Source: an uncultured virus (IMG/VR IMGVR_UViG_3300031787_000077) (taxonomy: Duplodnaviria > Heunggongvirae > Uroviricota > Caudoviricetes). Taken from it: 20,000 nt of DNA. How positions within the stretch are numbered: position 1 is the stretch's first letter; each line of letters starts with the position of its first letter. The notes under the pieces were generated by a model, which saw nothing but the letters and a program-made list of their open reading frames with translations, was not told the DNA's origin and ran no database searches. Below are positions 1,816-20,000 of this stretch, one piece after another. The stretch lies in the IMG/VR virus record IMGVR_UViG_3300031787_000077, positions 52,658 to 72,657 of that record; one strand, written 5' to 3'. Made by a program: the position numbers and the translations under genes.

Positions 1816-1839
1816 ATCAAATTAAATAGGAGATACTAT

Positions 1840-2349: not shown

Positions 2350-2371
2350 TAAAAAAATAAGGAGAATAACT

Positions 2372-2860
2372 ATGTCTGAACGCATCAAAGATATTTTAAA
2401 TTCTGTTAATGAAACTCTTCATAACACAAAATCTCAAGATACTGACTTTACTGAAGTTGAAGAAATGGAAGTTGAAAGTCCAGAAATGGAATTGATGGAA
2501 TATAAAAACGATTTTTATCAAATGAGTGTTGGTGCCATAAAATCAATTGCCACACACGCAAATGTTATCCTACAAGCATTAGATAATCCTAGCGTAAAGG
2601 AAGCCTTGACAGAAAGCTGGCTACAGGGTAAAATCGCCGTGACCGAAGATTATATGATCACGATCCACAATTTTGTCATGTTTGGTAAAACAGAAACCGA
2701 TACTGAAGGTAGCGTTTCTGAACACGCCACAAATGGCGATAAACCTGGACTGTGGGATAATATTCGTAAGAAAAAGGAAAAGATGGGCAAAAATTATCGA
2801 CCAGCTAAACCTGGAGATAAAGATAGACCCGATCCAGAACAATGGAAAAAATTAACTTAG
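2372..2860 (+). CDS. Hypothetical phage protein (acidic N-terminus, basic C-terminal module)
   Basis: The strong AGGAGA RBS precedes the ATG at 2372, so this start is preferred over 2294. Contains SWLQGKI...EDY and KPGLWDNIRKK modules. Confidence 0.8.
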   Translation: MSERIKDILNSVNETLHNTKSQDTDFTEVEEMEVESPEMELMEYKNDFYQMSVGAIKSIATHANVILQALDNPSVKEALTESWLQGKIAVTEDYMITIHNFVMFGKTETDTEGSVSEHATNGDKPGLWDNIRKKKEKMGKNYRPAKPGDKDRPDPEQWKKLT

Positions 2861-2867
2861 TAGTTAA

Positions 2868-2879
2868 TTAGTATAAATA
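2868..2879 (+). promoter_or_regulatory. Variant motif TTAGTATA overlapping TATAAATA, upstream of the sigma gene
   Basis: 2861-2876 TAGTTAATTAGTATAA matches 1801-1816 TAGTTAATTGGTGTAA at 14 of 16 positions. It contains TATAAATA (2872-2879), the T4 late-promoter consensus. Confidence 0.4.
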
Positions 2880-2909
2880 CTAGGACTCTTATTAAGGATT
2901 AAATAAAAC

Positions 2910-3566
2910 ATGATAGATATTGTATCTGTTGGTAATCAAAAATTATCTTATAAAGACCATGCTGATATTCAATTTGAGTCTTTACCATTCTATTTAGAAT
3001 TAGCACAAAAAGCCATATCTAAATTTGGTAAGAACTTTTCTGCAAATATTAGCAAGGAAATGTTGAGAAGTGAGGACGCTATAGCGTCGGTAGCAAACTG
3101 TATAATGATGGCAGATTGGAGATGGGATAAAGATCGGAAGGGAGATTCTGGTTTACAAAAAACTAAATATTCTTATAGAAATCAGTGCGCTATTTGGGCA
3201 ATCAAAAGCTATATCAGCCGTAAGAAGAATAAAAAGAGTAAAAGAGGTATCGAGATCAATGGCTGCTATGATAGCGAACAAGATTACTCATTATTAGATA
3301 TCTTATGTATTGAAAATGAATGTCCAGTTGAAACACTACAAAATAAAGAAGAAGATCAAAATCTTAAAAATTATTTTAAGCAAATATTAGATCCTAACAA
3401 TAAATTGCTCTCAGAAAGACAGTCTCAATATATCAAAATGTATTATTTTGAGAATAAGACATTTGCTGAAATCGGCAAAAGGTTTTCTGTAACCAGAGAG
3501 GCCGTAAGACAAGGTATCAAAAAGGCAATTATAAAAATTAAGGAGGTTAGCGAAGCACATGCCTAA
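2910..3566 (+). CDS. Phage-encoded sigma-70 family RNA polymerase sigma factor
   Basis: Region-4 HTH LSERQSQYIKMYYFENKTFAEIGKRFSVTREAVRQGIKKAIIKIK. Divergent region-2-like segment (IMMADWRWDKDR...YSYRNQCAIWAIKSY). AAGGA RBS. Confidence 0.85.
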   Translation: MIDIVSVGNQKLSYKDHADIQFESLPFYLELAQKAISKFGKNFSANISKEMLRSEDAIASVANCIMMADWRWDKDRKGDSGLQKTKYSYRNQCAIWAIKSYISRKKNKKSKRGIEINGCYDSEQDYSLLDILCIENECPVETLQNKEEDQNLKNYFKQILDPNNKLLSERQSQYIKMYYFENKTFAEIGKRFSVTREAVRQGIKKAIIKIKEVSEAHA

Positions 3567-4284: not shown

Positions 4285-4702
4285 TCCTACTATAGTTTGG
4301 GAAAAATGGGTTGATCCATACGGAAATAATCCAGAAGATATAGAGTGGCCAGGATATGATTCTGATCATATTATTGATGATCATGATGAAGAATCTGAAC
4401 ACAAGCCTAAAGTTAGCAAAATTAATGCTATAGTCACTTCGATGGGTATTATTCCATTTAATGAACATACAGATTGTAGTAAAATTTTTAATTTTTGGGT
4501 AGGACACACCAATTTTAGTATTACTCAATATATTGCTCATATTTTGCAGTCTATAGAGGGGGTTGAGACTTTGGATATATTTACTAGATATAGATTTAGA
4601 ATAGCATTTGGTAAGGCGTTTGATGATAGACAAGTGATGGATACTATAAATAGTAAAATCAAAACATTATTTATCACAAATGCCAATGAATCCGAATTTT
4701 GA
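4274..4702 (+). CDS. Hypothetical phage protein (acidic N-terminus, small alpha/beta C-terminal domain)
   Basis: Coupled to both neighbours. The C-terminus IAHILQSIEGVETLDIFTRYRFRIAFGKAF looks like a small folded domain. Confidence 0.75.
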   Translation: MQNNPTIVWEKWVDPYGNNPEDIEWPGYDSDHIIDDHDEESEHKPKVSKINAIVTSMGIIPFNEHTDCSKIFNFWVGHTNFSITQYIAHILQSIEGVETLDIFTRYRFRIAFGKAFDDRQVMDTINSKIKTLFITNANESEF

Positions 4703-5357
4703 ACAAAAATTATCCAATATCCATCATTATGGTATTGATCCAGAAAATAGAGAAATATTTCTCCATTCACACATGATGGATTGCGAGGATGAAAATGGCG
4801 TAGATTATAGATGTGCTGTGACTTTTGAAAAAAATTTACGCTACCTTAATACCATATCATTTGATCCTATTATTATACATATGCATATGCCGGGCGGCGA
4901 TTGGTCGGATTGTTTGGGTATATATGACGCTATGCAACACTCACAATCTCCCATTGCCTGCGTAGCATATGCTAAAGCAGAATCTGCTAGTGGTGTTATT
5001 TTCCAAGCGGCCGATCTGAGAATATTAATGCCTAATGCATATATGCTTATTCATTATGGGTCTTTATCACTAGATGGTGAACACAAAGCGGCCCTTAGTA
5101 ATCTAAAATGGAACGAACAAGAAGCATCAAAAATGATAGAAATTTTTACAGAGAAATGCTGCTTGTCTCCAATGGCTAAAGAAAAAATGTGGAAAAAATC
5201 AATGATAAAAAAACATATAACCTCCCAACTGTCTAATAAATCAGATTGGATACTTACAGCTAACGAATCGGTGTATTATGGTTTTGCTGATGGTATATTT
5301 GGCACATCACCATATCAATCCATAGAACACATCAAGAAAAAATTAGCGAAAAAATAA
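4680..5357 (+). CDS. clpP: ClpP-like serine protease (peptidase S14)
   Basis: NREIFL, HMHMPGGD...GIYDAM (cf. INSPGG...AIYDTM), AES (Ser102), MLIHY (His125), SDWILTANESVYYGFADGI (Asp189). The start may be 4680 or 4686. Confidence 0.88.
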   Translation: MPMNPNFEQKLSNIHHYGIDPENREIFLHSHMMDCEDENGVDYRCAVTFEKNLRYLNTISFDPIIIHMHMPGGDWSDCLGIYDAMQHSQSPIACVAYAKAESASGVIFQAADLRILMPNAYMLIHYGSLSLDGEHKAALSNLKWNEQEASKMIEIFTEKCCLSPMAKEKMWKKSMIKKHITSQLSNKSDWILTANESVYYGFADGIFGTSPYQSIEHIKKKLAKK

Positions 5358-5995
5358 TGTTTATAGAATACTATATTACTAATATAGACGAAAAAGAAAT
5401 TGAACTAAAAAATAATATAGAACAAATTATACAATACCCCATATCAGGCATAGTAGCGTCTCATCCACAAAGCAAATTTATAAAAAAAAATTTTCCTAAT
5501 ATTCGTACCGGTTGCTTTGTAGATTATCCCATAGCTAATAATGATATTGATCGTAGACCAGATTTAATCAAAGACGCAATCAGTATTGAATGTAATTATA
5601 TTAATATTACCATACCATTCTATTATATTATTAATAGAAAATATAATAAATTTAGAGAAGATATAAAAAAAAATTTAGATATCTGTAACTCCCATTCTAT
5701 AGAATTAAGATATATTCTAGAATATCGTAAATTTGATCACCAGCTATTATTAAAGGTTTGTGAAATTCTATTAGAAAATCAGATCAATACCATATATCCT
5801 TCAACGGGACTGTTTTTAGATAATATCGAAGACAATACTATAGCATGTGCCTATCTCAATAATAAAACAGGCATTAATACTATTGTAAATGGTAATATTT
5901 GGAAAAAAGACCAAATCACACAAATACATAAAATTCAACCATATGGATTTAGTACAAATCAAATAGAGACTGTAAAGCTTGCTTTAATACCATAA
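5357..5995 (+). CDS. DeoC (deoxyribose-phosphate aldolase)-like TIM barrel, probably catalytically inactive
   Basis: CFVDYP (cf. TVVGFP), LRYILE (cf. LKVILE), IYPSTG (cf. IKTSTG), NTIVNGNI (cf. GVKASGGI). The key lysines are absent. TAATG overlap with clpP. Confidence 0.7.
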   Translation: MFIEYYITNIDEKEIELKNNIEQIIQYPISGIVASHPQSKFIKKNFPNIRTGCFVDYPIANNDIDRRPDLIKDAISIECNYINITIPFYYIINRKYNKFREDIKKNLDICNSHSIELRYILEYRKFDHQLLLKVCEILLENQINTIYPSTGLFLDNIEDNTIACAYLNNKTGINTIVNGNIWKKDQITQIHKIQPYGFSTNQIETVKLALIP

Positions 5996-7501: not shown

Positions 7502-10500
7502 ATGAGCATTGAAATACAGGAAACAGTTTACAATCTTGAAATAGAAACCACTATTGGTTTAATTGATACAGATAATTCTTCTATAGCTCATGCCGCATTA
7601 ATTGCTATAGAAAATATAGATAGTATTACTAATATTGATCTAGCAGATAAAACATATGAAACTATAACAGATACTGTTTCTGTTGTAGAATTAAGCTCCT
7701 CTAGCGCTCAACAATTATCAATTAATAGTGATTTTTTATCACCAATTCCAGCTGATTATATTATTGGTCTTAACGAATATTTAAGTAATTTTATAGATAA
7801 TTATGAAATAGATTGCGGTCTGCCATCTCACACAAGACTACAATTACGCAGGGACGTGTCTAATAATTGGACTATTAATAATCCTATACTGTATAGTGGT
7901 GAAATTGGCTATGAAACAAATACTGGGCGTTTTAAGATTGGCGATGGAACTACCTCTTGGATAAATTTAGACTATAATGCAATAATCCCAGCTGGTTTTT
8001 TGGCTGGGAGCGGATTGAATGTAAGTATAGCAAATGATGGGTCAACAGTTACATATAGTTTGAGTGATCCCACAATTCAATTAAATGATATTACTGATTT
8101 AACGTCTCAAGCAAAATCATTTCTAGAGACCCCAAGTAGTTTTAATTTATCATCATTAGTAACTGATGAAATTGGTAGTGGCTCTCTGGTATTTGCTAGT
8201 GGAGCAACGTTATATAATGTTACATTATCTGGTTCTATCAATATTGGATCAGAAAGCTTAAACGAAATTATTGAAGATACTATTGGTAATAAAATTAAAG
8301 CAGGATCTAATATTGATATTAATTATAATGATACTAATGGTGAGACTACAGTCAGTACCACTGGAGTTAGCTTAATAGGACATCTACACACAGTATCAGA
8401 TATTATTAATTTTAATAGTGGAGTTAATGATTTATTGCCAGTAAAAGATATTCTAGGTAGTGGCTATGTTAATGTAAATGCTACTTCTGGCAACTACACT
8501 ATTAGTGTTAGTGGATTACAGCCAAGTGGAAATTATAGCATTGTCGGCCATACCCATACTGCATCCAATATTACAGACTTTAATAGCAGCGTTAGCGGCT
8601 TAATACCACCATCAAATTTTACATCTTTGGTTGGTATTAGCGGAATTACAGTAAGTAATAGTGGTACAAATTATATTGTAAGATTAACAGACCCTACTAT
8701 TCAATTAAATGATATTACAGATTTATCTACTAACGCCATCTCTTTTTTATTAACGCCAAATAGTCTTAATTTATCCAACTTAATTACTGATGAAACTGGG
8801 AGTGGATTATTAGTATTTAACAATAGTCCAATATTTACTGGTAATCCAAGAGTACCAACTGCGACAGCCGGCACCAATACTGCACAAATTGCTAGCACAG
8901 CATTCGTGAGAACAGAAATCAGTAATCTAGTAGATTATGCTCCAGGCTTTTTAGACACATTAAATGAACTAGCTAATGCTTTAGGAGATGATCCAAATTT
9001 TGCTACAACAATTACTACCATGATTAGTAATAAAGTAAGCAAAGATGGAGACACAATGACAGGCACACTATATGCTCCAAGTGGAGTATTTAGTAGTGGC
9101 TTAACCCTAAATGGCAATACTGTTAGCGTTGTTGGTCATACTCATACATCCAGCAATATTATAGATTTCAACAGTAGTGTTAGTGGACTATTACCTATCA
9201 TAAGTAATAGTGGTAATAATAGATTATTAACTAGCACTGGTACTAGTACTGGTATTAATGCTGAGAATAATTTAACATTTGATGGTACTACTCTTAGTAT
9301 TAGTGGATCTCTAATTGTTGATGATCTTCAGCTAAATTCTAATATAATTAGTGCTAATAAAGTTATTATAGATGGTGGTCCAGATGGGGTGGTGATATCA
9401 GGAACAGTAGTTCCGTCGCTAACATTTATTGGATCAACGCCTAGTATGGGGTCAGTTATATTCTTAGATGGTTATACTAATAATAATATATCTTTAAGTC
9501 GTTTTAATAATACTAGCGTTATAGATATTTCAACAGAGCATGGCGCACCATACTCTACTGGTATTATCAATTTTTATGCTGATGAATTAACATTTAATGG
9601 TATACCTATTAGTATCAGTGGACATACTCACATAGCATCTCAAATTATTGATTTCAATAGTAGTGTGAGTGGCTTAATTCCTGTGAAGAATATACTAGCT
9701 GGTAGTGGAATAGTAGTATCATCAATTAGTGGCATTTATACTATTGATGCTAATATTAGTGGAGTTATTTTAGAAACTATTCAGGATAATTTAGGCAATG
9801 AATTTTTAGTTGAGGGAACAGGAGTTCAACTAACTTATAATGATAGTGCTAATACTCTTACTTTAAATAATCTTCATACTGAAATTAATGAACTTAGTCT
9901 TGAGCCTCAAGGTTTTGTTAATCGTCTTGATAGTATTATAAGTTTCAATGATAGTACCAGAACTTTTACTATTGCTCCTAGTGGTTCTAGTTATGAAATT
10001 TATATTGAGGGCGTAAAAGTTACTAAAACAACCAGTGAAAGCATTGTTATTGGTAGCGGCACAGCGCTAAACTATATTCATTTTAATACTGATACTGGAT
10101 TATTAGATACTAAAACCACAGGATTTAATTTTGATACTGATGTACCCATTGCTTTTATTCATTGGAATAGTGATATTAATCAAAGCACATTTTTTGGAGA
10201 AGAGAGACACGGCATCAGAATGGACAGCATGACCCACAAGTGGATTCATAACACTTTTGGTATGCAATATATTAATGGATTAAGTATTGGTGGATATACT
10301 CTATCAGGAAACGGAAGTTTGGACAGCCATGCTCAAATTGATATTAGTGATGGTACTCTTTATCAAGAAGATATTATTATTAATATTGCTGATGGAAACA
10401 ATGGGGTTGAATTTACTCAACAGTTGAGTCCAATAGCTTATATTCCAGTTTATTATCATAGTGGCTCTACTGGACAATGGGTAAGAGATGTTTCAACTCC

Positions 10501-11749
10501 GTATCCATTAAAATATAATGCTACACGAGCGCTTTATAATTTATATTCTGGTGGAACATGGACTACACCTAATGTGCCTAATAATCGTTATTTTGCTATG
10601 TGGATTGTGGCCACTAATGATATTAATGATCCAGTATTAGCCATTATGGGACAACGAGAAGATAGTAGTTTAGGCGGTGCTGAAAATAATAATAATTGGG
10701 GTGAGATTAATTTAACAAATATTCCTACCAATGAATTAAGACCATTATATCGATTAATTTTTGTTACTAATGATGCTTTTGCTAATACCTCTAAAAGCAG
10801 TTTACAAAGCATACTAGATTTGCGCAAAAGTATTATCACAAGCACATATGGCGTTACCCAAAATGATCATGGTAGTTTATTCGGTTTGGGCGACGACGAT
10901 CATTCACAATACGTTCATATTAATGAAGCTCGCACTATTAGTGCTAATCATACTTTTACTAATGGATTAACTATTAATAATGGATTATTAAGTGCTACTA
11001 GTGGTAATTTTACTGCGATACAAGTAAATGGAACAGGAGTGAGCGTTAGTGGTCACTCTCATACAGCTTCTAATATTACGGATTTTAGTAGTTCTGTTAG
11101 CGGTTTGCTACCATTAACAAATATAGTTGGTGGAACTAATATTAGTGTAATTCCTAGTGGAACAGTATACACTATTAGTGTGAGCGGTAGCTTAGGATTA
11201 ACCACAGAAGAAGTAGACGATAGAGTAGCATCACTATTAGTAGCAGGAAGTGGAATTAATTTAAATTATGATGATAGTGGTAATATTCTTACTATTTCTA
11301 GCAGCGGCTCAACAATATTAAATCCTAGCGACAATAGAATATTAACTAGCAACGGCACTACTAATGGCATCAATGGTGAAAGTAATCTTACATTTGACGG
11401 ATCGGTCCTTAATGTAGATGGTAATATAGTATTTGACAGTTTCACAGAGAGTGTGGTATCAATAGGATCAAGTGGACCAACAAAAACATTATCTATTGAG
11501 GGTGGAACCGTTCAAACTTGTACGCTCACATCTAATTGTGTTTTTACTATGCCAAGTGCTGTGGCTGGTAAAAGTTTCAGTATGTTTTTAAATACTGGTA
11601 GCGGAAATTATACCGCTAGTTTTAGCGGAGTATTATGGAGTGATAGCGCGCCGCCAACAGTTACTACAACATCAAACAAGGTGGATATATTGAGTTTTAT
11701 TAGTGATGGAACTTATTGGTATGGAAGTTATTCTCAAAATTATGGATAA
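7502..11749 (+). CDS. Large mosaic tail fiber protein (1415 aa)
   Basis: Mtd_N-like segment (LQLRRD...NPILYSGEIGYETNTGRFKIGDGTTSW). Fiber motifs PTATAGTNTAQIASTAFV and APGFLDTLNELANALGDDPNFATT. Five GHxH repeats, a HGSLFGLGDDDHSQY motif, and a C-terminal beta domain ending VDILSFISDGTYWYG. Confidence 0.88.
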   Translation: MSIEIQETVYNLEIETTIGLIDTDNSSIAHAALIAIENIDSITNIDLADKTYETITDTVSVVELSSSSAQQLSINSDFLSPIPADYIIGLNEYLSNFIDNYEIDCGLPSHTRLQLRRDVSNNWTINNPILYSGEIGYETNTGRFKIGDGTTSWINLDYNAIIPAGFLAGSGLNVSIANDGSTVTYSLSDPTIQLNDITDLTSQAKSFLETPSSFNLSSLVTDEIGSGSLVFASGATLYNVTLSGSINIGSESLNEIIEDTIGNKIKAGSNIDINYNDTNGETTVSTTGVSLIGHLHTVSDIINFNSGVNDLLPVKDILGSGYVNVNATSGNYTISVSGLQPSGNYSIVGHTHTASNITDFNSSVSGLIPPSNFTSLVGISGITVSNSGTNYIVRLTDPTIQLNDITDLSTNAISFLLTPNSLNLSNLITDETGSGLLVFNNSPIFTGNPRVPTATAGTNTAQIASTAFVRTEISNLVDYAPGFLDTLNELANALGDDPNFATTITTMISNKVSKDGDTMTGTLYAPSGVFSSGLTLNGNTVSVVGHTHTSSNIIDFNSSVSGLLPIISNSGNNRLLTSTGTSTGINAENNLTFDGTTLSISGSLIVDDLQLNSNIISANKVIIDGGPDGVVISGTVVPSLTFIGSTPSMGSVIFLDGYTNNNISLSRFNNTSVIDISTEHGAPYSTGIINFYADELTFNGIPISISGHTHIASQIIDFNSSVSGLIPVKNILAGSGIVVSSISGIYTIDANISGVILETIQDNLGNEFLVEGTGVQLTYNDSANTLTLNNLHTEINELSLEPQGFVNRLDSIISFNDSTRTFTIAPSGSSYEIYIEGVKVTKTTSESIVIGSGTALNYIHFNTDTGLLDTKTTGFNFDTDVPIAFIHWNSDINQSTFFGEERHGIRMDSMTHKWIHNTFGMQYINGLSIGGYTLSGNGSLDSHAQIDISDGTLYQEDIIINIADGNNGVEFTQQLSPIAYIPVYYHSGSTGQWVRDVSTPYPLKYNATRALYNLYSGGTWTTPNVPNNRYFAMWIVATNDINDPVLAIMGQREDSSLGGAENNNNWGEINLTNIPTNELRPLYRLIFVTNDAFANTSKSSLQSILDLRKSIITSTYGVTQNDHGSLFGLGDDDHSQYVHINEARTISANHTFTNGLTINNGLLSATSGNFTAIQVNGTGVSVSGHSHTASNITDFSSSVSGLLPLTNIVGGTNISVIPSGTVYTISVSGSLGLTTEEVDDRVASLLVAGSGINLNYDDSGNILTISSSGSTILNPSDNRILTSNGTTNGINGESNLTFDGSVLNVDGNIVFDSFTESVVSIGSSGPTKTLSIEGGTVQTCTLTSNCVFTMPSAVAGKSFSMFLNTGSGNYTASFSGVLWSDSAPPTVTTTSNKVDILSFISDGTYWYGSYSQNYG
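8060..8818 (+). repeat. Two diverged ~135-bp intragenic repeats (8060-8194 and 8684-8818)
   Basis: Both encode L(S/T)DPTIQLNDITDL...FL.TP.S.NLS.L.TDE.GSG.LVF and share the DNA core ATTCAATTAAATGATATTAC. Confidence 0.85.
8378..11113 (+). repeat. Five dispersed 21-codon GHxH repeats (starts 8378, 8546, 9134, 9620, 11051)
   Basis: Consensus GHTHTASNIxDFNSSVSGLLP, read directly from the translation. Confidence 0.9.
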
Positions 11750-12775: not shown

Positions 12776-15700
12776 ATGGCCACATTATTTGTAGATTTTG
12801 AAAATGGAAATGATAATTATGCTGGAACCAGCTTTAATCCACTAGCGTCTGGAACAGACGGCCGAATCACCATATCCACAGCCCAAACTTTTAGTTCAGC
12901 TACCGCTAATTTTCCTAATGATGGCTCAATAACTCAGACTAAAAATTTATTTGGCTCGGCAGAAAGTATTGATAATGGTAATGCTTTTAGTGCGCTAGAT
13001 ATTAGTAGAACACGGGTCATCAACGAAACATCTCCAATATCTGGATCTAACGTATATACAATAGTTGAACTAGCTAATAATGCTACTCATAGATTAGCTC
13101 CACAAACAATAAGCTATTCATTAAATACTTCTCTACCATATACAGTATCACTTTATGCTAAAAGTTTTGGTCGATATATAGTAACTATGCGTTTTGGTAG
13201 TTTAACTAGCAAGGGTGCCAGATTTAATTTAAATAATGGTACTGTAGAAGCTGTCGGATTTAATGCTACAGCATCAATATCTAGTGCTGGTAATGGGTGG
13301 TACAGAATATCGTTAACAGCAACGCCAGCGGCCAGTAATGATTCGATTGAGTTAGGTTTAACCGACAATAATTATAGTGATACTGGTATGGAAACTTATG
13401 TTGGTAATGGCGTAGATGGCATTTATATATCCGCCCCTCAATTAGAACAAAACTCATCAGCTACAACTTATGAAAAACCAACCGAACAATATTTAAGTAT
13501 TTGGAATGGAAGTTTATATGCTGTATTTAAACTAGTATATTTATTAAATTCAACAACATTTATAATTACTGCTTTGTCTAGTGGTACAGCGGCGACAAGT
13601 CAAGCTGTTGATCGTCAATATTATATTGGAGGACGATGGAAAAATATTAATCTTAGTAACAGTGCTGTTGGGGCTAATGCCGCAAGATTAGTTCCTGGTG
13701 ATACTATAAGAATTATGGGTAGTCCAGCCCCAACTTTAGTTGGTAGTGGATTATGGACTAGTGACAGAGGCGGAATTTCTAGTAATGTTAGTAGTACGAC
13801 TAATACTTCTCCAATTACTGTTAATACATCTAGTTCAATGGCAACGCTTGGTGTAAGTACCGGCGATACTATTACTATTGCTGGTCACACAACCAATACT
13901 AATGCGAACGGAACATGGGTTGTTACAGTCGCAGATCCAGCCCTTGGTCGTTGTACGCTTAATGGATCCACAGGAAACGGAGTTGGTGGAGCGTCGGGGT
14001 TTTTCAAAAAAAGAACAAATTGTGTTGTAACATTAGATAGCGCAGTAACGGCTAATATTGCTAGTTATGGAAATCGAGGAGAAGGTCGCACAGGATGGAC
14101 AGGAGTAACAAATGTGACAGTTACGCTAGATGCTACTGATACTAAAGAGGGAGATGTCAGCGATAGCGTAGCTATAGGCGCAGCATTTACAACGGGCAAA
14201 GCAGCATATAAAAGTACAGGCGCATTAAATCTGAGTGGTTATCAACAACTTAGTTTTCATATTAAACAAACGGCTGGAACAGTTGCTGTTGTTGGGGATA
14301 TTAGTATCAGATTATGTTCTGATACTTTAGGAGATACTCCGGTTCATACATTCAATATACCGGCGCTAGGAGTATTAAATCAATGGGCTTGTTTTACTAT
14401 AGATCTTGGCTCTAATATGAATAGCAGCATTCAAAGTGTTGCCTTATACGTCGATACTGATAGAGGCGCTCAAACATTCTTATTAAGTAATATTATTGCT
14501 TGTAAAGCATCATCATCACCGGATAGTTTAAATTTATGCTCGCTGATTAGTAAAAATACAACTAATGAGCCTTGGTTTCCTATTATGAGTATTAATGGAA
14601 CAAGAGTAGTACTAGGTGCCTATCCAAATATTACCCCACTAGCTAATCCTAGCAATAATGATACTTATAGAGGATATTATGGATTTTCTGGAACTGGTAA
14701 TTCTACTGTTTATAAGAGAGAAACTATTAAAACACCAATTGGTACTTCTGTAAATATCCCACAAGCACTTAGACCACCAGAAGCTGGGTCAGTTAATTTG
14801 CCATATAATTTTGAGGGCGGCTGGGATCGAACAAATATGAGTGTTCAAAATTTAGAAACTTATATTGATGGTATTAATGGTTATGGGCTAGGATGTATAT
14901 CTCAAAATATGGTTTATGTTAATATTAACAAAATTGGTGTTGTAAGATATTATACAGGCGGTAGTTTTAATGCTAATCATCTTTCTACTCTAAGTTTAGA
15001 ATATGCTATAGGATGTACCAACATTGGTTGGGACTTCAGCATTGCTCAACAAAATATTATTAATAAAATAGCGGCTGTGGGTAATAATTATGGTATTAAC
15101 ATGGCTAATGCCGGAACGAATGTATTGTCTAATATAATACTTGTATCTAACATACAGGCTGGTATGTATACAAACAATACTACTGCTAATAATAAATATA
15201 ACAATTTTACTGTACTGAATACTAGTAGGAATGGATTAGATATTAGAGATACCACTGATTCTATATTTAATAGTGGTGTTATTGAGGCATCTAGCACATA
15301 TGGAATTAATGCATTATCATCTAACAATAATATATTTAATAATTTATCAACAAATAATAATACTATTTATGGTGCATTTTTAGGTGGTGGTCAATTATTA
15401 TTAAATAATTCTACTATAAATGAAACTGTTGAATTTTTTGTGGGTAATACTAGTCTTAATGGTAGAATACTTAGTTCTAATCATGATAATACAGCAAATA
15501 ATTATATTATTACAACAGACTACGGCTTAATAAGGCCACAAACTAGCATACGGTATACTAATAGTGGTTGGGCATGGGCATTAAGTCCGACTAATGCTAC
15601 ATATAGAAACTCTTTTTTCCCACTGGATTTATCTGTGACTAAAATAGCAGTATCTGCTAATAGTCTTGTTACAGTAAAGGCTTGGATGAGACGAAGTAAT

Positions 15701-15916
15701 GTCTTATTAACTACGGGATTAAGAATTAAAGGTGGTCAAATAGATGGTGTACCAAATGATATTACTAGTTATATGACTGCTGCTGCTGATACATGGCAGC
15801 AAGTAACTTTAACTTTTACTCCATCAGAAGTTGGCGTGGTGGAAATACTAGCAGAATGTTATGGTGGAACCACCCATACGGCATATGTTGATGATATTAG
15901 TGTAACTCAAGTTTAA
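12776..15916 (+). CDS. Tailspike/depolymerase-like virion protein with a beta-helix and carbohydrate-binding-like domains
   Basis: CBM/head-spike-like domain (GNGWYRISLT...APQLEQ). Asn/Ile-rich parallel beta-helix-like repeats at about 14900-15480. C-terminal jelly-roll-like domain (ADTWQQVTLTFTP...YVDDISVTQ). Confidence 0.72.
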   Translation: MATLFVDFENGNDNYAGTSFNPLASGTDGRITISTAQTFSSATANFPNDGSITQTKNLFGSAESIDNGNAFSALDISRTRVINETSPISGSNVYTIVELANNATHRLAPQTISYSLNTSLPYTVSLYAKSFGRYIVTMRFGSLTSKGARFNLNNGTVEAVGFNATASISSAGNGWYRISLTATPAASNDSIELGLTDNNYSDTGMETYVGNGVDGIYISAPQLEQNSSATTYEKPTEQYLSIWNGSLYAVFKLVYLLNSTTFIITALSSGTAATSQAVDRQYYIGGRWKNINLSNSAVGANAARLVPGDTIRIMGSPAPTLVGSGLWTSDRGGISSNVSSTTNTSPITVNTSSSMATLGVSTGDTITIAGHTTNTNANGTWVVTVADPALGRCTLNGSTGNGVGGASGFFKKRTNCVVTLDSAVTANIASYGNRGEGRTGWTGVTNVTVTLDATDTKEGDVSDSVAIGAAFTTGKAAYKSTGALNLSGYQQLSFHIKQTAGTVAVVGDISIRLCSDTLGDTPVHTFNIPALGVLNQWACFTIDLGSNMNSSIQSVALYVDTDRGAQTFLLSNIIACKASSSPDSLNLCSLISKNTTNEPWFPIMSINGTRVVLGAYPNITPLANPSNNDTYRGYYGFSGTGNSTVYKRETIKTPIGTSVNIPQALRPPEAGSVNLPYNFEGGWDRTNMSVQNLETYIDGINGYGLGCISQNMVYVNINKIGVVRYYTGGSFNANHLSTLSLEYAIGCTNIGWDFSIAQQNIINKIAAVGNNYGINMANAGTNVLSNIILVSNIQAGMYTNNTTANNKYNNFTVLNTSRNGLDIRDTTDSIFNSGVIEASSTYGINALSSNNNIFNNLSTNNNTIYGAFLGGGQLLLNNSTINETVEFFVGNTSLNGRILSSNHDNTANNYIITTDYGLIRPQTSIRYTNSGWAWALSPTNATYRNSFFPLDLSVTKIAVSANSLVTVKAWMRRSNVLLTTGLRIKGGQIDGVPNDITSYMTAAADTWQQVTLTFTPSEVGVVEILAECYGGTTHTAYVDDISVTQV

Positions 15917-15927
15917 AGAGGATTATT

Positions 15928-16104
15928 ATGAATTATATTATTAGTGAGGTATATTTAGATCCTGCAAACAAATATAGGGTGCGAGTAATTATAGACGAAA
16001 ATAGTGCAGAATTTTTCAAATTTGACCATTACCCTACCAAAGAACAAGTTAATGAGGCGGTTCAAAACTATCTAGATAATAAATCTTTACCAGACAACGA
16101 ATAA
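15928..16104 (+). CDS. Small hypothetical protein (58 aa), absent from the ORF track
   Basis: AGAGGA RBS. Translation MNYIISEVYLDPANKYRVRVIIDENSAEFFKFDHYPTKEQVNEAVQNYLDNKSLPDNE*. Fills the gap after the tailspike gene. Confidence 0.8.
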   Translation: MNYIISEVYLDPANKYRVRVIIDENSAEFFKFDHYPTKEQVNEAVQNYLDNKSLPDNE

Positions 16105-16110
16105 TATGTT

Positions 16111-16118
16111 TTGGTGTA
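16111..16118 (+). promoter_or_regulatory. TTGGTGTA motif (copy 3)
   Basis: Intergenic, upstream of an AAGGA RBS and the ATG at 16154. Confidence 0.55.
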
Positions 16119-16153
16119 ATACTAGTTATATCCACTAACAAGAAGGAATTATT

Positions 16154-16372
16154 ATGGCTAATGATATTAGTAAAGCTATTGTGGCCAATCCTATTAAAAA
16201 CGGCACCAGCATTGTGGGGTGCAAAGTAACAGGATTTGATAGTCACGATCTATTAAATACTTATGTTAGTAATAAGCCAACTATTACTGATATACAAGAT
16301 AAATATGATAACAGATTCTCTAATGGATTATTAGTACAACTAGTTGGAACCTCTGGCATTATAGGAGTTTAA
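16154..16372 (+). CDS. Small hypothetical protein (72 aa)
   Basis: AAGGA RBS. Ends 2 nt before the next ATG and contains that gene's AGGAG RBS. Confidence 0.75.
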   Translation: MANDISKAIVANPIKNGTSIVGCKVTGFDSHDLLNTYVSNKPTITDIQDKYDNRFSNGLLVQLVGTSGIIGV

Positions 16373-16374
16373 AT

Positions 16375-18300
16375 ATGGGTGGAATAGTTAGACTCAATCA
16401 ACTTCCAGAAGGTAGCGGTAATCTTACCAATGATGATATTTTTGTATTTATGGATGATCCATCTGGTAATGCTGTTACTAAAAAAATTAGTTTGAGCGAT
16501 TTGAACGCGGCTATGGGTGGCGCTGGCGAATCTGTAATGGTTGCCGGCTCAGGCACCGGCAGCATCGTCGGCCTGCCGACAGCGAACACGAATGTCGCCA
16601 GCGGCGACTACGGCGTAGTCGCTGGCGGCTACGGCAACACCGCCGGCGGAAACTACAGTTTTGTGGGCGGCGGCGGCTGGGATTCGCCAACCGGCGGAAA
16701 CACGGCGAGCGGCACTTACAGCGTTGTAGTGGGCGGTTGGGAAAACGTGGCAGAAGGCGACGCGGCGTTTGTCGGCTCTGGCGGAGAAAATACTGCCAGC
16801 GGACTCTACAGCGTGATCGGCGGCGGTCAGTCCAACGCCGCCAGCAACGATTACTGTGTTGTTGCTGGTGGTCAGAGCAACCTTGCCAGCGACACATCTA
16901 GCGTGGTCGGCGGCGGCAAGAACAACATCTCTAGCGCCAACTGCAGTGTGGTCGGCGGCGGAGATGGCAATGCCGCTACCGGCGCTCGAAGCACAGTAGC
17001 AGGCGGCGGCGCGAACACCGCCAGCGGCGACTATAGCGTGGTCGGCGGCGGCGAGAACAACACCGCGTCCGGCAATTACTCCAGCGCCGTGTTCAGCGGA
17101 AAAAACAACACCGCCAGCGGGTATCGGTGCTTCGTAGGCGGCGGAAAGGACAACACGGCGAGCGGCTACGGCTACGACGTTATCTGCGGTGGATACTACA
17201 ACGTCGCAACAGACGGAATCATCGTCGGCGGTGGGCATAATACTGCCAGCGGTTTTTACAGTTTCATCGGGGGCGGACACTACAACACCGTCACGGGTGA
17301 TCGTTCGGTCATTTGCGGCGGCGGAAAGGCACTTGGCGGCTTCCCGCCACTGCCAACCGAAGGCAATACCGTAAGCGGCAACTATTCATTCGTCGGCTGT
17401 GGAACCCTGCACTCCGTCGGCTCTGAACACAGCGTCGTCGTCGGCGGAAGGCAAAATTCGGTGTCAGGAAGTGGATACGCCTTCATCGGCGGCGGGAAGC
17501 AGAACAACGCCCAAGACAAGTTCTCCACCATCAGCGGCGGATACTCAAACAACGTCCAATACGACGGGTACGGGACTTATGTAACGGCCTCGACTGTTTG
17601 CGGCGGCCGATACAACACCATTTGGGGTAGCGGATACGATTGCTTCATCGGTGGCGGAGTTAGCAACACTGCTGGCGATATCTCCAGCACGGTTGCGGGC
17701 GGCAGCAACAACTCCGCAACGAATCCTTATACAACGGTAGGCGGCGGAGTAGGCAATGCCTGCTCTGGGATGGGTTCGGTCATCAGCGGAGGGCAGAACA
17801 ACACAACGAGTGCGTACTTTTGCTCCATCACTGGAGGCCGTTCGGCTGTTGCTGACCGAATTGGGATGCAAGCATACGCGGTCGGAGCGTTTGCGGCTAA
17901 TGGAGATGCGCAGCGGGTGAATTTCGTCCTGCGGGCCGTCACCACCGACGCTACGGCCACGCCTCTCACGATAGATTGGAATGGGTCCGGCGGTGTATAT
18001 CTGACTATCCCAACCGGCAAAGCCCTGTTCGCAACCGTCAACGTGGCTGGCATCATCAATGGCGGCAGCAAAGCGGCGCACTACTGCCGAAAAGTCGCGA
18101 TCAAGAACATCGGCGGAACGACGAGCCTCATCGGCACGGTCAGTACGGTCGGGACTGACGTTGAGGACGACGCCGCGTATGCCGTTGCCATCACGGCCGA
18201 CGACGCCAGCGACGCATTGCTAATCAACGTGACGGGCAAGGCCAGCGAAACGATCCGCTGGGTCGCGCACGTTGATGGCGTGGAGATTGCATATGGCTAA
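16375..18300 (+). CDS. Chimeric Gly-rich repeat fiber/adhesin-like protein (YadA-head/Hep_Hag-like ~15-aa repeats)
   Basis: More than 20 repeats of the form ASGxYSVVGGGxxNT. C-terminal beta domain (GDAQ...LRAVTTDAT...TIRWVAHV). The first ~42 codons are AT-rich and the rest GC-rich. Confidence 0.85.
   Translation: MGGIVRLNQLPEGSGNLTNDDIFVFMDDPSGNAVTKKISLSDLNAAMGGAGESVMVAGSGTGSIVGLPTANTNVASGDYGVVAGGYGNTAGGNYSFVGGGGWDSPTGGNTASGTYSVVVGGWENVAEGDAAFVGSGGENTASGLYSVIGGGQSNAASNDYCVVAGGQSNLASDTSSVVGGGKNNISSANCSVVGGGDGNAATGARSTVAGGGANTASGDYSVVGGGENNTASGNYSSAVFSGKNNTASGYRCFVGGGKDNTASGYGYDVICGGYYNVATDGIIVGGGHNTASGFYSFIGGGHYNTVTGDRSVICGGGKALGGFPPLPTEGNTVSGNYSFVGCGTLHSVGSEHSVVVGGRQNSVSGSGYAFIGGGKQNNAQDKFSTISGGYSNNVQYDGYGTYVTASTVCGGRYNTIWGSGYDCFIGGGVSNTAGDISSTVAGGSNNSATNPYTTVGGGVGNACSGMGSVISGGQNNTTSAYFCSITGGRSAVADRIGMQAYAVGAFAANGDAQRVNFVLRAVTTDATATPLTIDWNGSGGVYLTIPTGKALFATVNVAGIINGGSKAAHYCRKVAIKNIGGTTSLIGTVSTVGTDVEDDAAYAVAITADDASDALLINVTGKASETIRWVAHVDGVEIAYG
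16500..18292. other. High-GC horizontally acquired segment inside a CDS
   Basis: Hand counts: 16441-16500 is 18/60 GC, 16561-16620 is 39/60, 17941-18000 is 36/60, 18481-18540 is 15/60. Codons switch from GGT/GGA/AAT to GGC/AAC/GCC. Confidence 0.95.
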
Positions 18301-18329
18301 GATTCTAACTACTATATTATAGAATCTTA
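18298..18329. repeat. Perfect 10-bp inverted repeat with 12-nt spacer
   Basis: TAAGATTCTA (18298-18307) and TAGAATCTTA (18320-18329). It begins at the stop codon of the chimeric gene. Confidence 0.75.
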
Positions 18330-18347
18330 CCATAATGGAGACAACGA

Positions 18348-19148
18348 ATGAAAAAGTTCTTTTTTATTAGCGGTTTACCACGATCAGGCAGCACACTACT
18401 TTGTAATATATTAGCACAAAATCCTGATCTTTTTATTAGTAAAAGCACTAGCGGTTGTCATGATGTATTATTTGGTATACGAAATCAGTGGGATAAATTA
18501 ATAGAACATCAAGCAGAAGGATTAAATTATAATCAATTAAAAAGTGTGCTAGGTGCAGTATTAAATAATTATCACTATACTAATAAATCTTTAATAGTTG
18601 ACAAAGGGCGAGGTTGGCTAAGTTTGATAGAAATGGCCGAATTTATTCTTGGATATACTCCTAAAATTATAGTTCCAGTACGAAATCTTAGTGAAATATT
18701 AAGTAGTTTTGAAAAATTATGGAGAAAAAGTACAGGATCTACTCAATGGAATTTTGAATCTGGTGATTATTTTAAAGCTCAAACAACAGATGGTCGATGT
18801 GAAATATGGTGCAATCAGTCTCAACCAGTTGGATTAGCATATAATAGAGTTAAAGACGCTATTAGTAGAGGATATAAAGAGAAATTATTATTTTTAGAGT
18901 TTGATAATCTAACATCATATCCAGAACAAACTATAAAAACGGTGTATGACTATTTAGAATTACCATATTATACCCATAATTTTAATAATGTAGAACAATA
19001 TACTCAAGAAGATGATATTGGTGTTCATAAAATACCAGATTTGCATACTATAAGACCAGTAGTATTACCAGTTAATCATGATAGTGATAAAATATTGGGC
19101 AAAATTTTAACACAAAAATACTCTAATCTAGAAATATGGAGAAACTAA
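18348..19148 (+). CDS. PAPS-dependent sulfotransferase family protein
   Basis: 5'-PSB loop FISGLPRSGSTLL..IL.QNP, the DKGRGW motif, 3'-PB motif VRN...ILSS, and a FDNLTSYPEQTI..VYDYL segment. GGAG RBS. Confidence 0.88.
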   Translation: MKKFFFISGLPRSGSTLLCNILAQNPDLFISKSTSGCHDVLFGIRNQWDKLIEHQAEGLNYNQLKSVLGAVLNNYHYTNKSLIVDKGRGWLSLIEMAEFILGYTPKIIVPVRNLSEILSSFEKLWRKSTGSTQWNFESGDYFKAQTTDGRCEIWCNQSQPVGLAYNRVKDAISRGYKEKLLFLEFDNLTSYPEQTIKTVYDYLELPYYTHNFNNVEQYTQEDDIGVHKIPDLHTIRPVVLPVNHDSDKILGKILTQKYSNLEIWRN

Positions 19149-19149
19149 A

Positions 19150-19482
19150 ATGAGCATATTAGATAATAACAATGTTCCAAATCAACCACCACATCTCGCC
19201 AAACATGCTGCTAATAGACTAATAAACATAACTCGTCAAACATATCAGCAAATGGTCACAAGTTTTAATCAAGGGTCCCAAATGTTTTGGAAAAATCCTA
19301 TGGGGGTGTCACCAGAAGCTATTGCATCTGAACTAGGAAATAATGCTAAAGAAATATTTGAATTACACGCTAAACTTGGAGCATTAATAGCTAGTGTGAA
19401 ACCAGAAGCAATCAGTGAAGGTTCTTCATTAGTAGGTAATTTTACAATAAATGATGACGGCACAGTTACTATTAATAACTAA
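19150..19482 (+). CDS. Hypothetical phage protein (110 aa, mostly helical)
   Basis: Starts 1 nt after the sulfotransferase stop, with native codon usage. Confidence 0.8.
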   Translation: MSILDNNNVPNQPPHLAKHAANRLINITRQTYQQMVTSFNQGSQMFWKNPMGVSPEAIASELGNNAKEIFELHAKLGALIASVKPEAISEGSSLVGNFTINDDGTVTINN

Positions 19483-19494
19483 TATCATAAATTA

Positions 19495-19818
19495 ATGATT
19501 AAGCCAGGATATCGCACAAGTGAGTTTTGGTTTACACTAGTAAGCTTCTTATTTAGTGGAGCTTATCTAGTAGGTCTATTAGATAGTGTAAATCAAAAAG
19601 ATGATCTTATAGCAGAAACTAGCAAAGGACTAGAAGCGTTGATCCTAATCATGGGTCAATTGGCTGTGCTATTTCGATATATCAAAGGAAGAAATGATAT
19701 TAAACAAATTTGGTGGACTAATCAAAAAATAGTAGAGGAGAAAAAAGATGTCGAGCCAACAACTAATAAGAGACGAAGTAGAAAAACTAATAAACAGCGC
19801 CCAAGAAAGAGCAAATAG
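19495..19818 (+). CDS. Putative holin-like membrane protein
   Basis: KPGYRTSEFW N-terminus. Two hydrophobic segments (FWFTLVSFLFSGAYLVGLL; ALILIMGQLAVLF). Highly basic C-terminal tail. The CDS is solid; the holin function is inferred. Confidence 0.6.
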   Translation: MIKPGYRTSEFWFTLVSFLFSGAYLVGLLDSVNQKDDLIAETSKGLEALILIMGQLAVLFRYIKGRNDIKQIWWTNQKIVEEKKDVEPTTNKRRSRKTNKQRPRKSK

Positions 19819-19999
19819 TGTTAAAAGATTTGCTTTAGACGAAGCGTGGAAACTATTACAACTAGCCACAGCTAGCGTTGTACAAATTATAGAAGCTATT
19901 GGAAATGACCTTAGTAATCCGTCTAAAAAAGCTTTGGCAGTAGAATTATTGAATAAATACTATGATAAGGTTTTCGTAGTGGTGGATATTCCTTTTGTT
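19748..19999 (+). CDS. Hypothetical protein, 3'-truncated by the window edge, absent from the ORF track
   Basis: GAGGAG RBS at 19735-19740 and ATG at 19748. The frame is open to the end: MSSQQLIRDEVEKLINSAQERANSVKRFALDEAWKLLQLATASVVQIIEAIGNDLSNPSKKALAVELLNKYYDKVFVVVDIPFV. Confidence 0.8.
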   Translation, partial: MSSQQLIRDEVEKLINSAQERANSVKRFALDEAWKLLQLATASVVQIIEAIGNDLSNPSKKALAVELLNKYYDKVFVVVDIPFV

Positions 20000-20000
20000 C

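What the first reader, a model, noticed from the sequence alone, without database searches (positions are those of the whole stretch)
16375..18329. In-frame capture of a ~60-65% GC adhesin module behind a native AT-rich anchor peptide
Seen: GC content doubles abruptly near 16500, inside the ORF just after ...VTKKISLSDL. It falls back within a few codons of the stop (about 18292-18300). The frame, native RBS and upstream motif are preserved, and no transposase, integrase or target-site duplication is visible. Inference: a recent, unameliorated swap of the whole receptor-binding portion from a high-GC donor (host or co-infecting phage) onto a ~42-aa virion-attachment anchor. This would be a plug-in cassette locus for host-range change. 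It also suggests that this AT-rich phage replicates in cells containing high-GC DNA, which is a clue to the host.
Basis: partly seen in the sequence, partly recalled or inferred. Interest (0 to 1): 0.8.

Follow-up and report, generated by a model that had tools for sequence, protein, structure and literature searches.

The report
GC-rich fibre body on native anchor
An AT-rich lake phage carries a tail-fibre gene whose short front end is its own, while the rest still has the DNA make-up of a GC-rich phage, a clear but not new kind of example of phages swapping host-recognition parts.

Summary
ORF 16375-18300 (641 aa) starts at native composition (GC3 0.13-0.17). GC3 jumps to 0.6-0.9 at about 16500 and stays there to the stop. 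This is the only GC>0.47 stretch in the 72.7-kb phage contig (GC 0.34).

The shift is not driven by amino acids. It is not an assembly artefact either: independent contigs from other samples bridge both junctions.

The protein has three parts: a 42-aa N-terminal anchor, a YadA/LbR-like beta-roll repeat shaft, and a conserved C-terminal beta-sandwich domain.
- The anchor occurs on 54 other proteins with at least six unlinked body types.
- In two laid runs the same anchor continues into other, AT-rich sequence.
- The same shaft+tip family is encoded with AT-rich codons in other AT-rich phages and with GC-rich codons in GC-rich phages.
- The closest relative (87% aa) carries the Ala-rich anchor type seen in a GC-rich phage.

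I conclude that homologous module replacement from a GC-rich phage lineage is the most likely origin. The donor DNA was not retrievable, and the host was not identified.

GC-rich imports recur at this locus in related AT-rich phages. This is a new member of a known kind (a modular receptor-binding protein) with an unusually clean compositional tracer.

The parts
16154..16372 (+). Small ORF (72 aa), no family. It lies directly upstream of anchor-bearing fibre genes in relatives.
   Evidence: 57% aa identity to the ORF directly upstream of the anchor gene in the L003 group and 53% in L012. In L019 it is displaced to after the sulfotransferase module. No Pfam or PHROG hit.
16364..16367 (+). GGAG ribosome-binding site, 7 nt before the ATG at 16375.
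   Evidence: Read directly from the sequence.
16375..16500 (+). Native AT-rich N-terminal anchor (aa 1-42, ending ...TKKISLSD). Presumed virion-attachment module.
   Evidence: GC 0.34, GC3 0.17. 80% aa identity to the N-termini of the L003-L011 fibres and 67% to L012, which have unrelated AT-rich bodies. 54 further proteins carry it at 59-89% identity. Nucleotide similarity to the L003 group ends at 16500. Contigs of other runs branch at 16496 and 16499. Virion attachment is inferred, not tested.
16501..16545 (+). Linker (LNAAMGGAGESVMVA) of intermediate composition. The 5' crossover lies somewhere in this stretch.
   Evidence: Shared with P0003 (same anchor) but not with P0002, whose similarity starts at GSGTGSIVGL, aa 58. 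GC3 rises through this stretch.
16546..17826 (+). GC-rich shaft: about 15-aa (45-nt) GGxxNxASGxxSxVxGG repeats, an LbR/YadA-head-like beta-roll.
   Evidence: Pfam PF21300 LbR_Ice_bind, 3e-10, 40.5 bits against a cut-off of 30. Relatives carry PF18792 UspA1_rep and PF05658. Period-45 repeats are only 60-77% identical at nucleotide level, so they are old. GC3 is 0.47-0.93. The AF2 model has short strands throughout, with pLDDT 64-88 for residues 70-270.
17827..18297 (+). GC-rich C-terminal domain (157 aa, beta-sandwich). Putative distal or receptor-binding tip.
   Evidence: AF2 pLDDT 96.7, pTM 0.90. The six best of 48,161 chains are the tail-fibre or tailspike chains of Klebsiella and Acinetobacter phages (four align at the chain's C-terminal end) and a Klebsiella phage KP1 baseplate-tail interface chain, Z 6.4-8.2. 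The best BFVD match has TMq 0.92. 36-77% aa identity to 26 homologues from phages of locus GC 0.33-0.61. GC3 is 0.69 here, against 0.14-0.32 in the 9 other loci with GC <=0.40.
18298..18347 (+). Stop codon and AT-rich intergenic spacer; the 3' boundary of the island.
   Evidence: GC drops to 0.35 in window 18250-18549. In the alignment with L019 and L002, a conserved nucleotide patch (GAAAC.AT.CGCTGGGT) lies about 40 nt before the stop and is a possible crossover site.
18348..19148 (+). Sulfotransferase at native AT-rich composition. It is a conserved downstream partner of this fibre family.
   Evidence: PF13469 1.5e-14, PF00685 1e-9, phrog_27463 1e-55. GC3 0.135. 81% aa identity to L019 and 65% to GC-rich L002 and L013, in each case directly after the fibre homologue. 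It is also next to the fibre in L027 and L049.
19150..19482 (+). ORF110, no family. Third member of the conserved fibre-sulfotransferase-orf module.
   Evidence: 69% aa identity to L019 and 53% to GC-rich L002, in the same order. GC3 0.198.

Best explanation
The gene encodes a modular tail fibre (receptor-binding protein) of a large AT-rich lytic freshwater phage. Its first 42 residues are a lineage-specific anchor. By analogy with other phage fibres, this anchor docks the fibre to the virion. It ends at a conserved ...TKKISLS[DEQ][IL] boundary.

Everything after that was brought in by recombination with a homologous fibre gene from a GC-rich phage lineage. This comprises a beta-roll repeat shaft of the YadA/LbR type and a conserved C-terminal beta-sandwich domain. 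It replaced an AT-rich counterpart of the kind still present in the nearest genome relative.

Only recombinants that keep the recipient's own anchor can assemble, which explains the in-frame junction. The 3' crossover lies in or just after the last conserved codons, so the native sulfotransferase and orf110 downstream were retained.

The import is recent. Its codon usage is still that of the donor class, and the body is identical across samples while the anchor region exists in two alleles about 6% apart.

Shown: the composition, the junctions, the modularity of the anchor, and native-composition homologues in both GC classes.
Inferred: the direction and recency of transfer, virion attachment by the anchor, receptor binding by the body, and any effect on host range.
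For: 1) The composition is foreign at synonymous sites for nearly every amino acid. It is the only such stretch in 72.7 kb.

2) It is not an artefact.
- X7 contig record 10 (6,274 nt) spans 15900-17989.
- X4 record 7 spans 16439-18900 with 0 differences.
- X8 records 16 and 17 span 16379-16603 and 16579-18482.
- X7 record 12 and X12 record 5 cross the 3' junction (4 of 4 laid runs).
- L057, a contig from another collection, is 99.975% identical over 3,934 nt.
- 20 runs from 15 studies hold the stretch or part of it; 15 of them hold half or more of its sampled words.

3) The anchor is modular.
- 10 viral loci (2 distinct genes) carry it on unrelated AT-rich bodies with GC3 0.19 and 0.17.
- 14 more anchor loci, read, all have AT-rich genes.
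- 54 proteins carry it. With P0001 and P0010 added, the 56 fall into at least 6 unlinked body classes; only P0001, P0003 and P0010 have this body.
- Loose ends at 16496 (X4) and 16499 (X12) continue into other AT-rich sequence.

4) High GC is not intrinsic to the protein family.
- Of 37 loci (about 27 distinct) with the C-terminal domain, the gene GC3 follows the flanks in all but the L013/L055 contig.
- L020, L026, L031 and L035 encode long repeat arrays plus the tip with GC3 <=0.22 in every 60-codon window.
- GC-rich L002 (GC 0.61) and L058 (0.55) encode it natively.

5) The donor class is indicated by P0002. It is 87% identical over 428 aa and sister to the window in the C-terminal tree (98/99). 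It carries an Ala-rich anchor homologous to that of P0123, a fibre in a GC 0.57 phage contig.

6) The event is a replacement rather than an insertion. L019 is the closest genome relative found (sulfotransferase 81%, large fibre 74%). It has the same fibre-sulfotransferase-orf110 order with an AT-rich C-terminal domain.

7) It is recent. There are 14 differences, all at 16201-16434, and 0 across 16435-17989 in X7.
Against: - No donor DNA was recovered. P0002 (87% aa) and P0003 (same anchor, 53%) sit in collections whose DNA I could not fetch. No synonymous-site distance, and hence no date, can be given.
- The C-terminal tree does not resolve direction: the 10-row clade holding the window mixes AT-rich (L019) and GC-rich (L042, L058) rows.
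- Recombination between a 33% GC phage and a roughly 60% GC phage needs a shared cell. No host is known, and no cultured relative exceeds 35% identity for rIIA.
- In L019 only the repeat region is GC-rich (GC3 0.5-0.7). An intrinsic process in repeats would also predict this.
- The laid runs are contigs, not raw reads, so even read coverage across the junctions was not shown.
Confidence: 0.8

Rival explanations
1. The GC enrichment arose in place. GC-biased gene conversion, or another mutational bias, in a highly recombining repeat array pushed synonymous sites towards G/C inside an otherwise AT-rich phage, with no foreign donor.
For: - In L019 the GC3 rise (0.5-0.7) is confined to the repeat region. 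The N-terminus and C-terminal domain stay at 0.10-0.23.
- L038 has a local GC3 0.5 patch.
- L076 and L084 carry partly GC-enriched repeat genes, GC3 0.47-0.48.
- GC-rich patches recur in two unrelated repeat-protein families at this locus.
Against: - In the window the non-repeat C-terminal domain is as GC-rich (GC3 0.69) as the repeats.
- The boundaries are sharp and coincide with module borders.
- AT-rich phages keep long arrays of the same repeats at GC3 <=0.22.
- In the second family (MATLYFNGAVD...), the full-length genes in AT-rich flanks (<=0.38) are bimodal: 0.18 in 2 loci and 0.71-0.76 in 6 loci. The high value equals that of about 20 loci in GC-rich phages, GC3 0.58-0.80.
- The nearest relative, P0002, has an Ala-rich anchor.
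- The repeat units are only 60-77% identical, so there is no sign of active homogenisation.
Confidence: 0.08
2. The body was captured from the bacterial host chromosome, for example from a trimeric-autotransporter-like adhesin gene of a GC-rich host, rather than from another phage.
For: The repeats resemble adhesin head repeats (PF21300 in the window; PF18792 and PF05658 in relatives). Three MAG contigs hold distant relatives at 30-36% identity.
Against: - No relative was found with the protein patterns in one genome for each of 185,579 species: 173 pattern matches, none confirmed.
- The three profile hits are weak, lie on short MAG contigs, and may themselves be phage DNA.
- The C-terminal domain and the fibre-sulfotransferase pairing are found on viral contigs of all GC classes.
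- BFVD has 91 viral matches at E<=0.001.
- No autotransporter membrane anchor was detected.
Confidence: 0.05
3. Chimeric assembly: a GC-rich fragment from another organism was joined in silico into the phage contig.
For: Abrupt composition shifts are a classic sign of chimeras. The window lies at the end of a fragmentary contig, with CheckV completeness 53%.
Against: - AT-rich sequence resumes on both sides and the frame is preserved.
- Both junctions are reproduced in contigs of 4 of 4 laid runs, dated 2017-2025, and in L057.
- P0003 shows the same anchor-linker-body junction at protein level.
Confidence: 0.02
4. Diversity-generating retroelement or other targeted hypermutation of the fibre gene.
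For: The neighbouring 1,415-aa fibre has an Mtd_N domain.
Against: No reverse transcriptase was found in the 72.7-kb contig, while the control genomes did give matches. The altered stretch is 1.8 kb, far longer than a variable repeat. The change is a uniform codon-usage shift, not adenine-specific variation. The contig is only about half the genome, so absence is not proven.
Confidence: 0.01

Closest known systems
Modular receptor-binding proteins with a conserved N-terminal anchor and an exchangeable C-terminal specificity module (Klebsiella phage RBPs: PMC6872550, PMC8262889; E. coli tailspikes: PMC10408124). I saw only the search listings and the start of each abstract.
   Same: A short conserved N-terminal module is shared by related phages, and unrelated C-terminal bodies sit behind it. 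Exchange happens at the module border, within a tail-fibre gene cluster.
   Different: - The body here is a beta-roll repeat shaft plus a small beta-sandwich, not a depolymerase beta-helix.
- The phages are uncultured lake phages.
- The swap crosses a roughly 25-point GC gap and is still unameliorated.
- Anchor function was not tested here.
T-even distal tail-fibre locus, where recombination between conserved motifs swaps adhesin specificity (Tetart, Desplats and Krisch 1998).
   Same: Homologous fibre genes are mosaic, with crossovers in conserved stretches and glycine-rich repeats.
   Different: There is no sequence relation to gp37/gp38. No chaperone-adhesin pair was identified here.
Host-recognition module shared between distantly related Alteromonas phages (PMC10579305). 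I saw only the listing and the start of the abstract.
   Same: A tail-fibre module moved between unrelated phage lineages.
   Different: That case concerns phages of one host and similar composition, and the module includes a chaperone. Here the composition contrast itself is the evidence, and the host is unknown.
Trimeric autotransporter adhesin heads (YadA/UspA1 left-handed beta-roll) and the LbR_Ice_bind beta-roll (PF21300).
   Same: Repeats of about 15 residues rich in Gly, Asn, Ser and Ala. The Pfam match is above its cut-off.
   Different: There is no autotransporter membrane anchor. The N-terminus is a phage anchor and the C-terminus is a phage fibre domain. The protein works like an adhesin stalk but is not a TAA.

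Membership tests
Modular phage receptor-binding protein (anchor + exchangeable body) | Conserved N-terminal module shared by related phages that carry different C-terminal bodies | tested here: met
   The anchor is 80% and 67% identical in the L003 group and L012, which have unrelated bodies. 54 proteins carry it; with P0001 and P0010 added, the 56 form at least 6 unlinked body classes.
Modular phage receptor-binding protein (anchor + exchangeable body) | Gene lies in a tail or tail-fibre gene cluster | tested here: met
   ORF 7502-11749 upstream matches 26 PHROGs, most of those shown annotated tail fibre or tail protein (best 4.9e-27), and has Mtd_N. A prohead-protease-like ORF lies at 4680-5357.
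Modular phage receptor-binding protein (anchor + exchangeable body) | C-terminal domain with the fold of known fibre or spike distal domains | tested here: inconclusive
   The top 6 of 48,161 chains are phage tail proteins (five tail-fibre or tailspike chains and a baseplate-tail interface chain). But Z is 6.4-8.2, which the tool rates as middling.
Modular phage receptor-binding protein (anchor + exchangeable body) | Protein is part of the virion and binds a host receptor | not testable with these tools
   Needs virion proteomics, cryo-EM and adsorption assays. The host is unknown.
Horizontally acquired, unameliorated segment | Synonymous-site composition differs from the rest of the genome, independent of amino-acid content | tested here: met
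   GC3 is 0.66 against 0.135-0.296 in the other 20 ORFs.
Horizontally acquired, unameliorated segment | Homologues at native composition in donor-like genomes and in recipient-like genomes | tested here: met
   GC-rich: L002, L058 and L013. AT-rich: L020, L026, L031 and L035, with GC3 <=0.22.
Horizontally acquired, unameliorated segment | Identified donor with near-identical DNA | tested here: not met
   The best relative, P0002, is 87% identical at protein level, and its DNA is not in the collections scanned. No close relative was found in genome contigs.
Trimeric autotransporter adhesin (YadA/UspA1 type) | Head-type beta-roll repeats | tested here: met
   PF21300, 3e-10, 40.5 bits against a cut-off of 30. 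BFVD relatives are named TAA head or LbR_YadA-like.
Trimeric autotransporter adhesin (YadA/UspA1 type) | C-terminal membrane-anchor (translocator) domain | tested here: not met
   PF21300 is the only Pfam family found in the 641-aa protein at E<=0.01. The C-terminal 157 aa give no Pfam hit at E<=0.1 and model as a soluble beta-sandwich.
Diversity-generating retroelement target | Reverse transcriptase and template repeat nearby | tested here: not met
   PF00078 gives no match at E<=1 in the 72.7-kb contig. The contig is about 53% of the genome.

The most novel reading that the evidence does not exclude
The fibre locus of this clade of AT-rich lake phages is a standing import site for adhesin genes from GC-rich phages.

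Cases found here:
- The window's fibre body.
- The repeat patch in L019.
- Six distinct GC-rich MATLYFNGAVD-family genes inside AT-rich flanks.
- In the opposite direction, an AT-rich glycan-modification block in the GC-rich contig of L013.

If true, these 33-37% GC phages routinely replicate in the same cells as roughly 60% GC phages. They would therefore infect hosts far more GC-rich than themselves, as phiKZ does in Pseudomonas (recalled from memory). Unameliorated fibre modules could then serve as natural tracers to map who co-infects whom and to predict hosts of uncultured phages.
Probability: 0.3. Interest if true: 0.6.

Novelty: new member of a known kind. Interest (0 to 1): 0.42.

Why it matters
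Exchange of tail-fibre modules is textbook, but it is usually inferred from protein mosaics. Here codon composition marks the imported piece to within a few codons. This shows exactly which modules travel (shaft plus tip) and which must stay (a 42-aa anchor and the downstream sulfotransferase).

The exchange also runs between phages about 25 GC points apart, and it recurs in this clade. That bears on host prediction from phage composition and on how far fibre genes spread in lake communities. The anchor boundary (...TKKISLS[DEQ][IL]) is a natural junction, documented on dozens of bodies.

Tried and rejected
- Phage GenBank collection. blastn of 14000-20000 and tblastn of the protein gave no match.
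- Donor search. P0002 and P0003 as queries in viral contigs gave only distant loci. P0002 in metagenome contigs gave the window's own phage (L057) and a 42% relative. Genome contigs gave nothing with the protein and 3 weak MAG hits with the profile.
- Second copy of the anchor in the contig: none.
- Reverse transcriptase: none.
- tRNA genes in the window: none.
- Whole-protein fold search. Only weak beta-helix tailspike matches, TM 0.09-0.17, so I folded the C-terminal domain alone.
- Host via rIIA. The best cultured relatives are 28-35% identical, from many host genera, which is uninformative.
- Tree of the C-terminal domain. Window plus P0002 is supported, but the deeper order is open, so the tree alone does not give direction.
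- Contig depths. The depths differ between parts of the gene, but the tool states that contig depth cannot rank parts of a gene. I draw nothing from them.
- Earlier notes on this genome: none.
- Literature. One search for tail-fibre genes with higher GC content as a sign of transfer found 3 papers, none about this situation judging by title and abstract start. This one search, is my only basis for saying I saw no description of this case.
- One search was a mistyped reference that I did not repeat.
Full report
**Where the window lies.** The window is the last 20 kb of a 72,657-nt viral contig. The contig is classed linear, with CheckV completeness 53%, and its GC is 0.337.

The rest of the contig encodes the following:
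- rIIA and rIIB
- RtcB-like and T4-like RNA ligases
- a DNA ligase
- a clamp loader
- thymidylate synthase
- endonuclease VII

The window itself encodes the following:
- a GMP-reductase-like protein
- a glycosyltransferase
- a sigma-factor-like protein
- a ClpP-like prohead protease
- several very large fibre-like ORFs

This is therefore a large lytic phage. No cultured relative exceeds 35% identity for rIIA. Runs that hold the stretch are labelled freshwater or 'fungus' metagenomes, 20 runs in 15 studies.

GC rises from 0.33 to 0.59-0.64 at about 16500 and falls back at about 18300. GC3 goes from 0.13-0.17 in the first 40 codons of ORF 16375-18300 to 0.67 from 16495, and stays at 0.47-0.93 to the stop. 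The other 20 ORFs have GC3 0.135-0.296.

No other 500-nt window of the contig exceeds 0.43, and the island lies at least 6.9 sd above the mean. Codon choice changes for nearly every amino acid. For example Asn is 0.72 G/C-ending against 0.10, Ile 0.81 against 0.07, and Gly uses GGC 75 times out of 122.

**It is not an assembly artefact.** I laid contigs of four other runs on 15900-18900.
- X7 record 10 crosses the 5' junction (15900-17989).
- X4 record 7 covers 16439-18900 with no difference.
- X8 records 16 and 17 cover 16379-16603 and 16579-18482.
- X7 record 12 and X12 record 5 cross the 3' junction.

A contig from a different collection (L057) is 99.975% identical over 3,934 nt. These are contigs, not raw reads, so even coverage was not shown.

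**Anatomy.**
- Residues 1-42 are the anchor.
- Residues 43-57 are a linker shared with P0003.
- Residues 58 to about 484 are repeats of about 15 residues, GGxxNxASGxxSxVxGG. They match PF21300 at 3e-10. The repeats have a 45-nt period and are only 60-77% identical to each other.
- Residues 485-641 form a beta-sandwich, modelled at pLDDT 96.7.

The best structural neighbours of the last domain are phage tail proteins: five tail-fibre or tailspike chains, four aligned at their C-terminal ends, and a baseplate-tail interface chain. Z is 6.4-8.2, which is middling. Among predicted viral structures it recurs behind beta-roll, collagen and Mtd_N shafts, with 91 matches at E<=0.001.

**The anchor is a module.**
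- Ten viral loci (two distinct genes) carry it on unrelated AT-rich bodies.
- Fourteen more anchor loci came from another scan, all with AT-rich genes.
- The protein collection holds 54 proteins with the anchor at 59-89% identity. With P0001 and P0010 added, the 56 fall into at least six unlinked body classes, and only three have this beta-roll body.
- In runs X4 and X12, contigs that share the anchor leave the window's sequence at 16496 and 16499 and continue into other AT-rich sequence.
- Nucleotide similarity to the L003 group also stops at 16500.

**High GC is not a property of the protein family.** A profile scan found 37 viral loci with the C-terminal domain. In all but one contig the gene's GC3 follows its flanks, across flank GC of about 0.29-0.64. 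Four AT-rich phages encode long arrays of the same repeats plus the tip with GC3 <=0.22 in every 60-codon window. GC-rich contigs (L002 at 0.61, L058 at 0.55) encode it natively. Among the 9 other loci with GC <=0.40, the C-terminal domain has GC3 0.14-0.32. The window has 0.69.

**Where it came from.** The nearest protein, P0002, is 87% identical over 428 residues and is sister to the window in the tree, with support 98/99. It lacks about 135 residues of repeats. Its anchor is a different, Ala-rich type that is homologous to the anchor of a fibre (P0123) in a GC 0.57 phage contig.

No bacterial genome holds a close relative. Note that this collection has one genome per species and could miss a prophage.

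The closest genome relative found, L019, has a fibre, sulfotransferase and orf110 in the same order, and its C-terminal domain is AT-rich. The GC-rich phage L002 has the same three-gene order too. I therefore read the event as replacement of a resident homologous body by an allele from a GC-rich phage. The crossovers lie at the end of the anchor and in the last conserved codons. The donor DNA could not be fetched, so the date and exact crossover points remain open.

**Recency.** The body's GC3 of about 0.70 equals that of GC-rich homologues, 0.70-0.82. In X7 (as in X4 and X12) all 14 listed differences from the window lie at 16201-16434, and X7's contig shows none across 16435-17989. X8 has the window's anchor allele. 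So two anchor alleles carry the same body.

**A wider pattern.**
- L019's fibre is GC-rich only in its repeat region.
- The L003 group and others carry a second repeat-protein family (N-terminus MATLYFNGAVD...) right after the anchor gene.
- Of 35 distinct genes of that family, the full-length ones in AT-rich flanks (<=0.38) are bimodal. Two have GC3 0.18 and six have 0.71-0.76. About 20 in GC-rich flanks have 0.58-0.80.
- Three of the six GC-rich genes have AT-rich sequence on both sides (L089, L102, L117). The others lie at contig ends.

Bimodality argues for import and against a gradual in-place bias. The contig of L013 shows the converse: a GC 0.57 phage contig ending in 4 kb of GC 0.33 DNA that encodes a radical-SAM enzyme, a GT2 and a sulfotransferase. 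I could not check that junction.

**Comparison with what is known.** The architecture matches modular receptor-binding proteins with N-terminal anchors (listings and abstract starts only). It also matches module sharing between unrelated phages. It is not a trimeric autotransporter, because no membrane anchor is present.

I confirmed only the gene adjacency, in five contigs.

**Verdict.** The finding is real, and its reading as a recent in-frame swap behind a native anchor is supported. The donor is more likely a phage than the host. The host clue is reasonable but unproven. This is a new member of a known kind.

Noticed in passing
L019:4728-5954 (closest genome relative found; 80-kb viral contig): Its fibre gene (P0006) is GC-rich only in the repeat region, about 4953-5500, with GC3 0.5-0.7. 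The N-terminal 60 aa and the C-terminal domain stay at GC3 0.10-0.23. This is a second mosaic with different borders.
   Followed up: partly
L003:7455-8654, L077:4806-5981, L076:4483-5643, L084:4780-6830: A second repeat-protein family (N-terminus MATLYFNGAVD...NWW, GNATFNDSS-type repeats) sits right after the anchor gene. In AT-rich flanks its GC3 is either 0.18 or 0.71-0.76. In GC-rich phages it is native at 0.58-0.80.
   Followed up: partly
L013:1-3000 (= contig G001:C1:33600-37595): A GC 0.57 phage contig ends in about 4 kb of GC 0.33 DNA encoding a radical-SAM protein, a GT2 glycosyltransferase and a sulfotransferase, abutting a GC-rich fibre gene. This is either the reverse kind of import or a chimeric contig end.
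   Followed up: partly
window 18348-19482; L002, L013, L019, L027, L049: A sulfotransferase follows this fibre family within about 100 nt in five contigs of different GC, and in three of them an orf110 homologue follows too. In the window both are at native AT-rich composition although the fibre body is not.
   Followed up: partly
window 16201-16434: There are two alleles of the anchor region, differing at 14 positions, mostly synonymous, plus G2S and N19S. X4, X7 and X12 share one allele. X8 and the window share the other. Both are joined to the identical body.
   Followed up: partly
window 7502-11749 and 12776-15916: Two very large ORFs. The 1,415-aa ORF has Mtd_N and many tail-fibre PHROG matches. 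The 1,046-aa ORF has no Pfam or PHROG match at all.
   Followed up: no
window 75-3566: GMP-reductase/IMPDH-like gene, GT4 glycosyltransferase and a sigma-70 region-4 protein lie upstream of the structural genes. A heptose-phosphate kinase/adenylyltransferase-like gene sits just before the window, at L067:8995-9438.
   Followed up: no
L012:5995-8979: The same anchor is fused to a 994-aa body with about 400 residues of collagen-like G-x-x repeats and a Phage_tail_C tip.
   Followed up: no
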